This document shows positions 1 through 3,000 of a DNA stretch of 15,767 nucleotides, in pieces. Position 1 is the first letter of the stretch. Every line of letters begins with the position of its first letter. The DNA lies in IMG/VR virus record IMGVR_UViG_2700989171_000012; one strand, 5' to 3'. The position numbers were made by a program. The stretch is from a virus. Its lineage: Duplodnaviria; Heunggongvirae; Uroviricota; Caudoviricetes.

Positions 1-3000
1 ATGAGCAGAGCACTTAACAAACTGAGCGATACACAGCTGAGGAAAATCAACGGCACACCCGCCCAAAAAACAGCCTTTCTTAATGACGGTGGAAACCTGA
101 GCGTCAGGCATTCAACCAGTGGCCTTTTAACCTGGTATTTCACTTACAGGGCCGGAACGGGAAGGGGGGCACCACCGGAACGCATTAAGCTGGGAAATTA
201 TCCTGATCTGAGCCTGAAATCAGCCAGGGAAAAAGCCGCCCAGTGTCGCGCATGGCTGGCAGAGGGGAAAAATCCACGTCATGAGCTTAATTACACCGTA
301 CAGGAAGCGTTAAAGCCGGTAACGGTTGGCGATGCGCTCACCTACTGGCTTGAGTCGTACGCAAAGGAAAACCGCGTGGATTATGCCGCCCTGAAAAAGC
401 GCCTTAATAATCACGTAATACAGCACATTGGTGCTATGCCGCTGGATAAATGCGAGCTACGGCACTGGCTGGCCTGTTTTGACCAGGTGGCAAAGCGAAC
501 GCCTGTTACTGCCGGATTCTTGCTACAGACGTGCAAACAGGCGCTTAAGTTCTGCCGGAGGCGGCGCTATGCAATCAGCAACGTTCTTGATGATATGAGT
601 GTGGCGGACGTTGGGAAAAAACCGGATATAAGCGAGCGTGTCTTAAGCACCAAAGAACTGGGCGAATTATTGCAGGCACTGGACAAAAAAATATTCTCCC
701 CCTACTACATCGCGTTAATCCGCCTCCTGATTGTGTTCGGATGCCGGACGGTAGAACTGAGGTTATCGGAGATCAGCGAGTGGGATTTTACCGAAATGCT
801 CTGGACCGTGCCGAAAGAACACAGCAAAACGAAGGTGGCAATATTCCGGCCCATACCGGAAGCAATACTGCCGTTCGTCACGCAGCTGGTGGAGCAGAAC
901 AGGCACACGGGCTTATTGCTGGGGGAAGTGAAACAGGAAACAAGCGTGTCGCAGTACGGCAGATTAGCGCACAGGAGGCTAAATCACCCTCACTGGTCAC
1001 TACATGACATCCGGCGCACCTTTACAACGATGCTGAACGATTTAGGCGTGGATCCTCACGTCGTGGAGCAGCTTACAGGCCACCAGATGCCAGGAATGCA
1101 GCGAGTTTATAATCATTCCCGTTATCTGGATGCTAAACGCAATGCGCTGGATATGTGGACGGAGCGGTTAGGGATACTGGCGGGAACACATGAAAACGTA
1201 ACCACGCTACCAGTAGCCAGAAGAAAATAATTTTTTTCGTGTTTTTTCAGTATGCGCATACTGGATATGCGAACAGATACAACGTGCAACAATGAGCAAC
1301 AATGCGGAACAACTACGAACAAGAGGTGAAAAAGTGTACAGATTTATAAGTAGCTGATTTTTAATGTGTTACTGATTTTTTATACACTAGCGAATCACTC
1401 TTTAAATAGCGAGAAAAAAGGCATGAAACAATATTTTATGCCTTTGTATTAACATGAATTTAAAGGATTTTATCCTGATTATTCCTCTTTCTGTAAACCA
1501 TACGGCCTCAACATTTGCCAACTCTGAATCATCCTGACACAATCAGACACATCCCAACGCAATAGAACACGAAATAACTCTTTAAGAAACGAAAGGGGGC
1601 AATAGTGTTAAGCACTGATCGGTTTATACGTGAAAAAGAATGCGAAAAGCTAACAGGCCTTAGCCGCTCATGCCGCTACCGCCTGGAAAAGGCCGGACAA
1701 TTCCCATCACGTCGTAAACTTGGCGGTCGTTCCGTTGGCTGGTCTTTATCCGAGGTTCTGGCCTGGAAGGATAGCTGCAAGGCAGTTCATTAATCACGCT
1801 GGCGGCACGCAGCCGCCACACATCAATCATCTGAACACAGAGCTATAACCATGAAGATTGAATATACGCCAGAACGTGGGCGGGGATTCGTTCGCCCTGG
1901 TGAAACTGGAAAACCACAAAATTGGGGTTTTTCAGGCATAAAAAAAGCGGCCCCGAAATGGAGCCGCCTTTCTGAACAGATAACCCGCTGCGCCGTTTGT
2001 GTGTGTGATCCCAAACATAAGCACGGGGATGATAGCCGCTATCAGGCTGGTGGGCAATGCAATCAGTCTGGTTCAGTGCGTTGCCATAACTGCGAAGTTC
2101 TCTCCTTTGATGAGTATTCTTTAAGGTACTTCTCAAGGGCAAAAGAACACGGCGCGAATCGTTCTGATTCATGCTCTTTCTTTCTGCGTCGTCTTTTTCG
2201 TGCAGGTGATGTTTTTTCGGTTGATTCTTCGTTGGTCATTGTGTGCGCCTGTAAAGCAATGCGCCGTAGTACCTCACACCACGGCGCTGATAGTTTTTAT
2301 CCTTTGGGTTCTATGCCGCGTTGCTGTAATTCTTTGCGGATTATTCGCTTTATCCAGGCAGCAAGAGAATCATCGCCGTCCTGTTGTTGTGCCTTTTCCA
2401 TCTTTTCCCGTAAGTCAGGATCTAAACGGAACTGGAACGGAGGATTACCACGCCTTTCGTTTTTGTGTGTTGACACGTTAATTACACCTCAGGTAATGTA
2501 TTTATGTGTAGTGACACATTACACACAATCAACACAAAAAGCAAAGCCCCGCACTGTAGGAGCAGTAACGGGGCTTCTAACCAACAACGTAAACTAGGAG
2601 CCGTTATGGTTGCCGTAAATCATATACCACACCTTGTACACACACAAACGGCCTTTGTGTGGCGTTTTCTGGCACTGAGTGCCGGAGAATCCCAAATCAT
2701 CCACGTAACCGCTTGGACGGAACGCGAAGCGCGTAGCCGTTGCCCGTCCGGTTGTGTTGCTGTATTCGCCGCCCGTATTCGTCAGGGGGAAACCTATGCA
2801 CAATAAAACCACACCGAACGCAGCAGCCGCCGCACTCACTACGCTGATGCACGCGCTTATTGATATTGAATGCACGGCAGAGCTTGCGCAGGGAGAAGAA
2901 CAGAAAGACCGGACACAGTTCGCCCTGGAATGTATCCGATACATCGCAACGCGGTCACTGAATGACGCTAAAAATATTCTTGTTGCCGATTGTGAAAATG

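What the first reader, a model, noticed from the sequence alone, without database searches (positions are those of the whole stretch)
1248..1325. Perfect 16-bp palindrome and helically phased GnAACAA repeats just downstream of int
CAGTATGCGCATACTG (1248-1263) is a perfect palindrome. It is followed by five or six GnAACAA repeats at about 10-bp spacing (1271-1325), which would place sites on one face of the helix. Candidates are regulator binding that sets alpA expression, or integrase/directionality-factor arm sites.
Basis: partly seen in the sequence, partly recalled or inferred. Interest (0 to 1): 0.45.

Follow-up and report, generated by a model that had tools for sequence, protein, structure and literature searches.

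The report
Candidate AlpA operator array in PICI
The phased ACAA repeats between int and alpA are real and conserved, recur at both ends of this phage satellite, and are most likely docking sites for its small master regulator/excisionase AlpA; the neighbouring palindrome is a dispensable, lineage-specific extra.

Summary
The window is an EcCIEDL933-type capsid-forming PICI (phage satellite) inserted between roxA and phoQ. Both observed features exist. The 16-bp palindrome (1248-1263) is perfect, but it is unremarkable statistically. It is missing from a whole class of related islands, including the experimentally studied EcCICFT073. The repeats are the real signal. ACAA recurs five times at exactly 10 bp (1279-1322), with unit consensus wGrAACAACG. 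No run of four or more appeared in 2000 simulations. Across 51 distinct homologous spacers, ACAA columns are 96% conserved against 76% for the linkers, and copy number changes only in whole 10-bp units. The same phased motif occurs at three other places: on the attL arm, on the attR arm (each beside a doubled GGTGTAGTTAAT motif that looks like the Int arm site), and upstream of the capsid module. It is not the replication origin, whose iterons (TCTACC) lie at 5523-5760. AlpA has an excisionase winged-helix fold. The published AlpA-activated PalpA fragment contains the whole array. Best reading (about 0.6): cooperative head-to-tail AlpA binding sites serving autoregulation and excision, as with 186 Apl, P2 Cox, TorI and RdfS. 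AlpA binding itself is untested. New member of a known kind.

The parts
1..1230 (+). int, a P4-type tyrosine integrase with an arm-binding N-terminal domain
   Evidence: Pfam Arm-DNA-bind_3 (E 5e-18) and Phage_integrase (E 1e-16). 100% identical to a Shigella flexneri SFBU1023 locus.
1248..1263 (.). Perfect 16-bp palindrome CAGTATGCGCATACTG. It is specific to class A islands and its function is unknown.
   Evidence: Absent in class B (L003, L011, EcCICFT073 L087), deleted in L009, and with variants CAGTATGCACATACTG and CAGCATGCGCATACTG. Not terminator-like: the T-run precedes it, fold z = -1.6, and the scan found no terminator.
1268..1276 (+). Degenerate, out-of-phase unit GCGAACAG. It also forms the right half of a CTG-N10-CAG element at 1261-1276.
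   Evidence: In class B the equivalent position holds a proper in-phase ACAA unit.
1275..1324 (+). Array of five co-oriented 10-bp units (ACAA at 1279, 1289, 1299, 1309, 1319). This is the candidate AlpA operator upstream of alpA.
   Evidence: non-random. (ACAA columns 0.956 against linkers 0.756 in 51 distinct spacers; 6 units in class B; an expansion of exactly 10 bp in L040/L112). (it lies inside the published AlpA-activated PalpA fragment of EcCICFT073).
1417..1445 (.). Conserved 12-bp-stem hairpin between the array and the alpA promoter. A T-run follows it only on the - strand.
   Evidence: I7.: -12.9 kcal/mol, z = -3.7 on +; z = -2.4 on -. The right arm is invariant in the alignment.
1515..1543 (+). 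Best sigma-70-like candidate for PalpA: TTGCCA-17-CACAAT with TG upstream of the second hexamer.
   Evidence: Consensus scan. TTTGCCA is invariant, and an xACAAT hexamer sits 17 bp downstream in all three spacer variants. This is inferred; no transcription start site is mapped.
1605..1793 (+). alpA, a 62-aa winged-helix protein of the AlpA/excisionase family
   Evidence: Pfam PF05930, E 5e-18. AlphaFold model pLDDT 86.6. Best structural matches are the GIsul2 excisionase 8c3t (TM 0.83/0.90), RdfS, Pukovnik Xis and TorI.
5523..5760 (.). Replication origin with TCTACC/GGTAGA iterons in both orientations, immediately 3' of the primase-helicase gene (3767-5515). Listed because it excludes the ori reading of the ACAA array.
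   Evidence: The organisation matches the published Gram-negative PICI ori (PMC6092414).
6578..6595 (+). Intrinsic-terminator-like hairpin closing the replication module. Its T-tail runs into the internal array.
6619..6642 (-). Internal array of three ACAA units (AACAACGTGGAACAACCACGAACAA on the - strand) upstream of the capsid module. Two weaker units may extend it to 6598.
   Evidence: Present in cf-PICIs (L011 and IMG/VR contigs) and absent from the classical PICI EcCICFT073.
14164..14187 (-). attR-arm array of three ACAA units
   Evidence: It lies 19 bp from the doubled arm motif.
14207..14230 (+). Doubled 12-bp motif GGTGTAGTTAAT GGTGTAGTCAAT, the candidate Int arm-type site on the attR side. 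Its twin lies just upstream of the int ATG (L004 2456-2479).
   Evidence: It has the same tandem-12-bp architecture and similar distances from the core as the P4 arm repeats and the HE-PICI doubled motif (PMC10111431).
14300..14309 (.). att core GGACATATTT shared by attL (L004 2321-2330) and attR. It overlaps the phoQ stop codon.
   Evidence: Direct comparison.

Best explanation
The five phased ACAA units at 1275-1324 are an operator for AlpA, the island's own 62-residue winged-helix protein. AlpA protomers would bind head-to-tail, one per helical turn, on one face of the DNA and form a short cooperative filament.

The island carries four such arrays. Two sit on the attL and attR arms, each next to a doubled Int arm-type motif. 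There, AlpA would act as the recombination directionality factor for excision. One sits between int and alpA, where it would provide the AlpA-dependent positive autoregulation of alpA that has been measured. In capsid-forming PICIs, a fourth sits behind the terminator that precedes the capsid module.

What is shown: the arrays, their selective conservation, their four positions, the excisionase fold of AlpA, and the fact that the published AlpA-responsive fragment contains the array.

What is inferred: that AlpA is the protein that binds, that binding is cooperative, and how a site about 190 bp upstream of the likely -35 element activates transcription (possibly by DNA bending or looping, or through a second unmapped promoter).

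The 16-bp palindrome is not part of this device. It is a class-A-specific insertion that replaces one repeat unit.
For: (1) Non-random, exactly phased, co-oriented repeats.

(2) Footprint-like conservation. ACAA columns are 0.956 conserved against 0.756 for linkers in 51 distinct homologous spacers. There are 5 units in class A and 6 in class B, and L040/L112 gained exactly one 10-bp unit.

(3) In 516 kb of related elements, every exact-phase ACAA run of 3 or more units falls into one of four classes: attL arm, int-alpA spacer, upstream of the capsid module, or attR arm.

(4) The att arrays abut a doubled 12-bp motif that occupies the positions of arm-type sites in P4 and HE-PICIs. This leaves the phased motif for a second protein.

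(5) AlpA matches Pfam PF05930, and its model best matches solved excisionases.

(6) Literature on EcCICFT073. AlpA activates its own promoter, is required for excision and induction, and did not change Pint-lacZ (PMC6092414). So it needs sites both near alpA and at att. The PalpA-lacZ insert (L087 4128-4583) contains the whole array (4188-4241).

(7) Established rule: RDFs bind head-to-tail to tandem repeats one helical turn apart, and several use the same site type at att and at promoters. Examples are 186 Apl, P2 Cox, P4 Vis, TorI and RdfS (PMC7498355; PMC2951348; PMC11963761).

(8) In relatives with Int at 55% and AlpA at 66-70% identity, the doubled arm motif is kept (GGTGTAGT, GGTGCAGT). 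The adjacent phased motif changes to GTTCG or GTTCA, and the predicted AlpA recognition helix also changes (SRSCRYRLE to CRTTRF/YLME).
Against: No binding data exist, so the protein assignment is by elimination.

The array ends about 190 bp upstream of the only consensus-like promoter (-35 at 1515) and 283 bp from the alpA start. A conserved hairpin lies in between. That is far for a simple activator.

The array's orientation relative to the downstream gene is opposite to that of the other three arrays.

RDF sites are usually on one att arm, whereas here both arms carry them.

AlpA did not alter a Pint-lacZ fusion whose forward primer maps upstream of the attL array; the reverse primer could not be mapped. 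TorI and Vis, by contrast, repress int from such sites.

The covariation evidence rests on two divergent lineages in which Int has also diverged.

HE-PICIs, which have the same doubled-motif architecture, show no obvious phased arrays.

The assignment could be swapped, with AlpA on the doubled motif. That motif shares TGTAGT with the lambda Xis X2 site as I recall it; this comparison is from memory and was not tested.
Confidence: 0.6

Rival explanations
1. The phased repeats are bound by something other than AlpA. Candidates are the still-unidentified helper-phage inducer of alpA (for example a phage excisionase or activator) or a host direct-repeat-binding regulator. In this reading the array is the sensor through which the satellite detects its helper.
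For: alpA transcription is switched on by helper phages through an unknown factor (PMC6092414; PMC11773190). Excisionase cross-talk between a PICI and its helper has been reported. Direct repeats at a 10-bp period are also typical of lambda CII-type (TTGC-N6-TTGC) and OmpR-family sites (from memory). The array lies far from the core promoter, as a remote sensor could.
Against: The PalpA fragment responds to AlpA alone in a non-lysogen. The motif also sits on both att arms, where an element-encoded RDF is expected. The motif changes in lineages whose AlpA has diverged. No known host or phage consensus matches wGrAACAACG. A separate conserved block (TTTCTGTAAA, 1488-1497) next to the -35 element could equally be the inducer's target.
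Confidence: 0.15
2. The repeats are arm-type sites for the N-terminal domain of Int. Int would bind downstream of its own gene and at the other arrays for autoregulation or higher-order intasome assembly.
For: The same motif lies on both att arms within about 130 bp of the core. Int carries an arm-binding domain. IntS of KplE1 regulates its own gene through arm sites.
Against: The 1279-1322 and 6619-6642 arrays are 1.45 kb and 6.8 kb from the attL core. P4 and HE-PICI arm sites are doubled 12-bp motifs, and this island has such a motif (GGTGTAGTTAAT x2) at the matching distances. Runs of 5-6 sites at a strict helical period are the RDF pattern, not the Int arm pattern. In L081 the doubled motif is retained with Int at 55% identity while the phased motif changes.
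Confidence: 0.1
3. The repeats have no protein partner. They would be a slippage-generated decamer microsatellite or a sequence-directed bend in the int 3' flank, and the palindrome a chance or cruciform element.
For: The unit number varies by whole decamers (L040/L112, class A against class B). The palindrome alone is within chance.
Against: Slippage copies whole units. Here the 4-bp core is held while the linkers diverge. The same core recurs at four functionally meaningful places and nowhere else in 516 kb. ACAA is not an A-tract.
Confidence: 0.05
4. The repeats are replication-origin iterons for the island's primase-helicase, by analogy with P4 type I iterons (GGTGAACAG at a 10-11 bp period), followed by an AT-rich unwinding region.
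For: P4 iterons contain GAACA and are helically phased, and one P4 cluster (crr) abuts attP. The sequence 1330-1390 is AT-rich.
Against: The island has a canonical PICI ori immediately 3' of the primase gene with different iterons (TCTACC/GGTAGA, 5523-5760). Islands with a RepA-family helicase instead of the D5-type primase (L001, L011) carry identical ACAA arrays.
Confidence: 0.02

Closest known systems
Coliphage 186 Apl and P2 Cox operators (dual RDF / transcription regulators)
   Same: Short co-oriented recognition sequences at 10-11 bp spacing, in runs of 5-7. The same site type is used at attP and at a promoter region. Binding is by a small monomeric (w)HTH protein, with cooperative head-to-tail binding and bending (PMC7498355).
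   Different: Apl and Cox repress face-to-face promoters and sit directly over them. Here the regulator activates, and the array lies about 190 bp upstream of the likely promoter. Apl and Cox are not PF05930 proteins. Their arrays are on one att arm only. No binding data exist here.
KplE1 TorI and P4 Vis (AlpA/TorI-like excisionases of P4-type and related integrase modules)
   Same: Small excisionase-fold proteins with 5-bp core sites in blocks on the int-proximal att arm, interleaved with Int arm-type sites and overlapping the int upstream region (PMC2951348). TorI is among the structural matches of AlpA. The relative L081 even has TorI-like GTTCG cores.
   Different: TorI and Vis repress int. 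AlpA of EcCICFT073 did not change Pint-lacZ. TorI is not known to have a second array outside att that controls its own gene. The core motif differs (ACAA against GTTCG).
RdfS of ICEMlSymR7A
   Same: A wHTH excisionase that binds attP directly upstream of an Int arm site and also binds its own promoter, coordinating excision with expression, and forms head-to-tail filaments (PMC11963761). It is the second-best structural match.
   Different: No consensus motif is discernible for RdfS, whereas here a sharp 4-bp core is invariant. RdfS has an extra N-terminal helix. It belongs to an ICE, not a phage satellite.
Doubled attP motif of helper-embedded PICIs (tgTGTATTGCa x2) and P4 arm repeats
   Same: This island has the same architecture: a tandem 12-bp motif on each side of the core at about -86 and +142 bp, against -81 and +132 in HE-PICIs and in P4.
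   Different: That motif corresponds to GGTGTAGTTAAT here, not to the ACAA repeats of the finding. The HE-PICI paper does not describe phased short repeats, and I found none next to the HE-PICI motif.

Membership tests
RDF / excisionase operator array (Xis, Cox, Apl, TorI, RdfS type) | Three or more co-oriented short sites spaced about one helical turn (10-11 bp) apart | tested here: met
   Five ACAA at exactly 10 bp (1279-1322), six in class B, and 3-4 at the other arrays. None of 2000 simulations reached a run of 4.
RDF / excisionase operator array (Xis, Cox, Apl, TorI, RdfS type) | The same site type is present on an att arm next to integrase arm-type sites | tested here: met
   Arrays at L004 2412-2445 (attL) and window 14164-14187 (attR), lying 10 and 19 bp from GGTGTAGTTAAT x2.
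RDF / excisionase operator array (Xis, Cox, Apl, TorI, RdfS type) | A cognate small winged-helix RDF-family protein is encoded by the element | tested here: met
   alpA 1605-1793: PF05930 E 5e-18. Model pLDDT 86.6. Top PDB matches are excisionases 8c3t, 8dgl, 4j2n and 1z4h.
RDF / excisionase operator array (Xis, Cox, Apl, TorI, RdfS type) | The protein physically binds the repeats, cooperatively and with bending | not testable with these tools
   Needs EMSA or footprinting. No published AlpA-DNA data for PICIs were found in three literature searches.
RDF / excisionase operator array (Xis, Cox, Apl, TorI, RdfS type) | The regulated promoter fragment that responds to the RDF contains the sites | tested here: met
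   The pJP2038 PalpA-lacZ primers map to L087 4128-4583, and the array is at 4188-4241. AlpA activation of that fusion is reported in PMC6092414. The resolution is only 456 bp.
Integrase arm-type sites (P4-like heterobivalent integrase) | Located within about 50-200 bp of the crossover core, as part of attP/attL/attR | tested here: not met
   The attL core is at L004 2321-2330, which is 171-180 bp upstream of window position 1. The array at 1279-1322 is therefore about 1.45 kb away, beyond the whole int gene.
Integrase arm-type sites (P4-like heterobivalent integrase) | Tandem (doubled) ~12-bp motif flanking the core, as in P4 and HE-PICIs | tested here: not met
   That description fits GGTGTAGTTAAT x2 (14207-14230; L004 2456-2479), not the ACAA decamers.
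Replication-origin iterons (PICI ori / P4 ori-crr) | Adjacent to the rep gene, flanking an AT-rich segment, and specific to the Rep type | tested here: not met
   The true iterons (TCTACC) lie at 5523-5760. ACAA arrays are identical in islands with D5-type primase and with RepA-type helicase.
Rho-independent terminator (for the palindrome) | A GC-rich hairpin followed by a U-run on the transcribed strand | tested here: not met
   The T-run precedes the hairpin on + and an A-run follows it on -. The terminator scan found none there. Fold z-scores are -1.6 and -0.9.
Known structured RNA (Rfam) | A match to a curated covariance model | tested here: not met
   The only hit in 1150-1900 is far below threshold (opuB, 21.6 bits against a gathering score of 75).
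LexA (SOS) box, for 1261-1276 | CTG-N10-CAG with an AT-rich centre, and SOS-dependent expression | tested here: inconclusive
   CTGGATATGCGAACAG fits CTG-N10-CAG, and two variants read CTGTATATGCGAACAG. No quantitative LexA score was computed. The element is absent in class B, and published data say alpA induction is not SOS-dependent.

The most novel reading that the evidence does not exclude
A single 62-residue winged-helix protein, through one 4-bp core repeated at helical phase, wires together all stages of a satellite's life cycle. Arrays on both att arms drive excision, one drives its own amplification, and in capsid-forming PICIs one gates the self-encoded capsid module. A more radical version is that the int-alpA array is the long-sought entry point of the helper signal, read by a helper-phage excisionase-like protein that cross-binds the AlpA sites.
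Probability: 0.15. Interest if true: 0.6.

Novelty: new member of a known kind. Interest (0 to 1): 0.4.

Why it matters
Gram-negative PICIs and capsid-forming PICIs are widespread. This int-alpA spacer alone occurs in 787 of 5426 complete E. coli genomes. Their master switch AlpA is known only genetically, and no operator has been described in the literature I could search.

A precise, conserved candidate operator at four defined positions turns 'AlpA is the master regulator' into directly testable statements. It says which bases to mutate, which fragments to footprint, and which step (autoactivation, excision, capsid-module expression) each array serves. It also narrows where the unknown helper-phage signal must act, because the rest of the spacer holds separate conserved blocks.

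It is not a new principle. It extends the Apl/Cox/TorI/RdfS logic to phage satellites.

Tried and rejected
(1) Ori/iteron reading. Rejected after finding the real TCTACC iterons at 5523-5760 and identical arrays in islands with a different Rep.

(2) Terminator or RNA-structure reading of the palindrome. No U-run, weak z-scores and no Rfam hit.

(3) Palindrome as a widespread phage operator. An exact-match scan of IMG/VR returned 42 contigs. Many are the same contigs already retrieved with AlpA, and the palindrome mostly sits at the same distance from the contig end. I did not inspect the remaining few, such as L113 and L116.

(4) Pseudomonas AlpA antitermination as a model. That AlpA is a larger Q-like protein with a single GGGACG element between -35 and -10, so the name is shared but the mechanism does not transfer.

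(5) Generalising the array to other PICI lineages. AlpA homologues at 64-70% identity have an extra gene between int and alpA and no ACAA arrays. They have only a 3-unit phased array of a different core beside the arm motif. HE-PICIs with the TGTATTGC doubled motif show no clear phased arrays.

(6) A shared promoter downstream of the arrays. Pairwise local alignments of the flanks found nothing beyond the att doubled motif.

(7) The genome-contig scan with Int gave only the source-like Shigella locus and one irrelevant hit.

(8) A coding reading of the - strand ORF 1402-1542. This is unlikely, because a 10-bp indel in O157-type spacers breaks the frame.
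Full report
**Context.** The window is a phage satellite of the capsid-forming PICI type (EcCIEDL933-like).
- Its genes are int (1-1230), alpA (1605-1793), a D5-type primase-helicase (3767-5515), and then capsid, prohead protease, portal and large terminase genes. The host gene phoQ lies at the right end.
- A Shigella flexneri chromosome encodes a 100% identical Int and supplied the DNA upstream of int (L004).
- The 551-bp stretch around the finding occurs in 787 of 5426 complete E. coli genomes. It is always annotated as integrase plus helix-turn-helix/AlpA regulator, and it occurs at several insertion sites (roxA-phoQ, tqsA, allE).
- The classical, experimentally studied PICI EcCICFT073 sits at the same roxA-phoQ site. 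Its Int and AlpA are identical to those of my 'class B' loci.

**Observation.**
- The palindrome CAGTATGCGCATACTG is perfect and lies at the stated coordinates.
- ACAA starts at 1279, 1289, 1299, 1309 and 1319, exactly 10 bp apart.
- The literal GnAACAA pattern hits only three units.
- The putative sixth unit (GCGAACAG, 1268-1276) is out of phase.
- Chance cannot produce the array. In 2000 Markov-1 simulations of the window the longest run was 3, and no 4-mer of any kind exceeded 3 in 300 simulations.
- The palindrome alone is not remarkable. 24% of simulated windows contain a perfect palindrome of 16 bp or more, and the window has a second one at 14082-14097.

**Comparative evidence on the spacer.**
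- I aligned eight E. coli loci. I then collected 51 distinct int-alpA spacers (one deletion variant excluded) from E. coli genomes and IMG/VR contigs.
- ACAA columns have a mean majority frequency of 0.956. The linker columns between them have 0.756, and the spacer as a whole 0.83. This is the signature of a short contacted core with free linkers.
- Two spacer classes exist. Class A has the palindrome plus five units. Class B (including EcCICFT073) has no palindrome and six units in perfect phase.
- One variant (L040/L112) gained exactly one more 10-bp unit.
- Within class A the palindrome is broken without compensation in several sequences (CAGTATGCACATACTG, CAGCATGCGCATACTG).
- In strain 4750 a deletion between two CTGGATATG copies removes the int 3' end and the palindrome but leaves the array intact.
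- The palindrome is neither terminator-like nor a significant RNA fold, and no Rfam family matches.
- Its exact sequence occurs in 42 IMG/VR contigs, many of them the same PICI contigs already retrieved with AlpA. I did not inspect the few others.

**The array is one of four.**
- A pattern search for three phased ACAA found two further perfect hits on the opposite strand, at 6619-6642 and 14164-14187 (0.10 hits expected).
- Reading these and the DNA upstream of int showed the following:
  - The att core is GGACATATTT (L004 2321-2330; window 14300-14309, overlapping the phoQ stop).
  - Each arm carries a doubled 12-bp motif, GGTGTAGTTAAT GGTGTAGT(T/C)AAT. One copy lies about 86 bp from the core centre on the attR side and the other about 142 bp on the attL side, ending 21 bp before the int ATG.
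  - Directly outside each doubled motif lies a phased TTGT/ACAA array, with four units at attL and three at attR.
- The doubled motif has the architecture and spacing of the annotated arm repeats of P4. It also matches the 'doubled motif' reported at -81/+132 in helper-embedded PICIs (PMC10111431).
- It occurs with up to 2 mismatches nowhere in the int-alpA spacer.
- The third extra array lies just behind a terminator (6578-6595) that closes the replication module, about 215 bp before the capsid ATG.
- Across 516 kb of related elements, every exact-phase run of three or more ACAA belongs to one of these four classes. EcCICFT073 has the attL, spacer and attR arrays but not the internal one.

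**Which protein binds?**

*Replication initiator: excluded.* The island has a typical PICI origin immediately 3' of the primase gene with unrelated iterons (TCTACC/GGTAGA, 5523-5760). Islands with a RepA-type helicase carry identical ACAA arrays. The published description of Gram-negative PICI origins matches this.

*Int arm-binding domain: unlikely.* Two arrays are kilobases from att, and the doubled 12-bp motif already fills the arm-site role.

*AlpA: the best candidate.*
- It is a PF05930 protein.
- Its AlphaFold model (pLDDT 86.6) best matches solved excisionases: the GIsul2 excisionase 8c3t (TM 0.83/0.90), RdfS, Pukovnik Xis and TorI (sequence hit to 8c3t).
- Published work on EcCICFT073 shows three things (PMC6092414). 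AlpA activates its own promoter. It is required for excision, replication and transfer. It does not change a Pint fusion.
- Confirmatory autoregulation is reported in EcCIMP1 (PMC11773190).
- AlpA therefore needs sites both near alpA and at att, and the ACAA array is the only motif shared by those places.
- I mapped the published primers. The AlpA-responsive PalpA-lacZ insert (pJP2038) spans L087 4128-4583 and contains the entire six-unit array at 4188-4241.
- RDFs as a class bind head-to-tail to tandem repeats one helical turn apart, and several double as regulators using the same sites at promoters: Apl, Cox, Vis, TorI and RdfS.
- Two divergent relatives point the same way. In L081 Int is 55% identical and AlpA 66%; in L085 AlpA is 70% identical. 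Both keep the doubled arm motif (TGGTGTAGTCAT x2; TGGTGCAGTCAG x2). The adjacent three-unit phased motif changes to GTTCG (as in TorI sites) or GTTCA, and the predicted AlpA recognition helix also changes.

**Weaknesses.**
- Nothing here shows binding.
- The only consensus-like promoter in the spacer is TTGCCA-17-CACAAT (1515-1543), whose -35 block is invariant. It lies about 190 bp downstream of the array, with a strongly conserved hairpin (1417-1445, z = -3.7) in between. Activation would therefore need bending or looping, or an unmapped promoter.
- The spacer array is inverted relative to the other three.
- RDF sites on both arms are unusual.
- AlpA did not affect the Pint fusion, whose forward primer maps upstream of the attL array; I could not map its reverse primer.
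- HE-PICIs show no comparable arrays.
- The covariation rests on few lineages in which Int diverged as well.
- The Pseudomonas 'AlpA' antiterminator is a different, larger protein and gives no guidance.

**Verdict.**
The repeats are very probably a regulator/directionality-factor operator (AlpA, about 0.6). They are not Int arm sites, not an origin, and this copy is not part of att.
- The palindrome is a dispensable class-specific feature of unknown function.
- In kind this is a new member of the known Apl/Cox/TorI/RdfS class of phased RDF operators. It is apparently undescribed for PICIs in the searchable literature.
- Interest is moderate. It gives PICI biology a concrete, mutable operator and separates the AlpA input from the still-unknown helper-phage input.

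Noticed in passing
window 7684-7686 (capsid gene 6859-8016): The major capsid gene carries an in-frame TGA where a related cf-PICI (L011) has TGG (Trp276). This copy of the satellite probably cannot make its own capsids.
   Followed up: yes
window 6394-6555: The SSB gene is truncated to 53 aa (136 aa in L011). The PerC-family regulator and neighbouring small genes present in L011 and EcCICFT073 are missing, so the terminator and internal ACAA array follow directly.
   Followed up: partly
window 5523-5760: Replication origin with about ten TCTACC/GGTAGA iterons in both orientations around AT-rich segments, immediately 3' of the primase-helicase gene.
   Followed up: yes
window 14207-14230 and L004 2456-2479: Doubled 12-bp motif GGTGTAGTTAAT x2 on both att arms, about 86 and 142 bp from the core centre. 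It is the likely Int arm-type site and is analogous to the P4 arm repeats and the HE-PICI doubled motif. The att core GGACATATTT overlaps the phoQ stop codon.
   Followed up: yes
window 1417-1445: Conserved hairpin (12-bp stem, z = -3.7). A T-run follows it only on the - strand, suggesting termination of a leftward transcript from the alpA leader region, or a weak int terminator. No - strand promoter was found by consensus scan.
   Followed up: partly
window 1261-1276: CTGGATATGCGAACAG fits the CTG-N10-CAG frame of LexA boxes, and two related spacers read CTGTATATGCGAACAG. It is absent in class B, and published data say alpA induction is SOS-independent. The resemblance was judged from memory of the consensus and not scored.
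   Followed up: no
window 1488-1497 and 1354-1386: Other invariant blocks in the spacer are unexplained: TTTCTGTAAA just upstream of the putative -35 element, and CTGATTTTT / CTGnTTTTTTATACAC, a direct repeat 18 bp apart with an IHF-like core nearby. They are candidate targets for the helper-phage signal or for a bending protein.
   Followed up: no
window 14082-14097: A second perfect 16-bp palindrome, TATGGGGATCCCCATA, lies between the last island gene and the attR array.
   Followed up: no
window 6721-6768 and 6818-6858: Two features lie between the internal array and the capsid ATG. One is a 17-nt inverted repeat (94% complementary). The other is a hairpin plus T7 run ending at the capsid start codon. 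This leader-like architecture might gate the packaging module.
   Followed up: no
window 10353-10435 and 11230-11280: Two runs of N (masked sequence) inside the packaging module.
   Followed up: no
L009 (E. coli 4750) about 2018: A deletion between two CTGGATATG copies (window 1147-1155 and 1261-1269) truncates int and removes the palindrome but keeps the ACAA array and alpA.
   Followed up: partly
L085 2384-2420: In a relative with an extra 302-aa gene between int and alpA, the alpA upstream region carries two copies of the palindromic ATAGTGATATCACTC 22 bp apart. This operator-like arrangement suggests a different control of alpA in that lineage.
   Followed up: no
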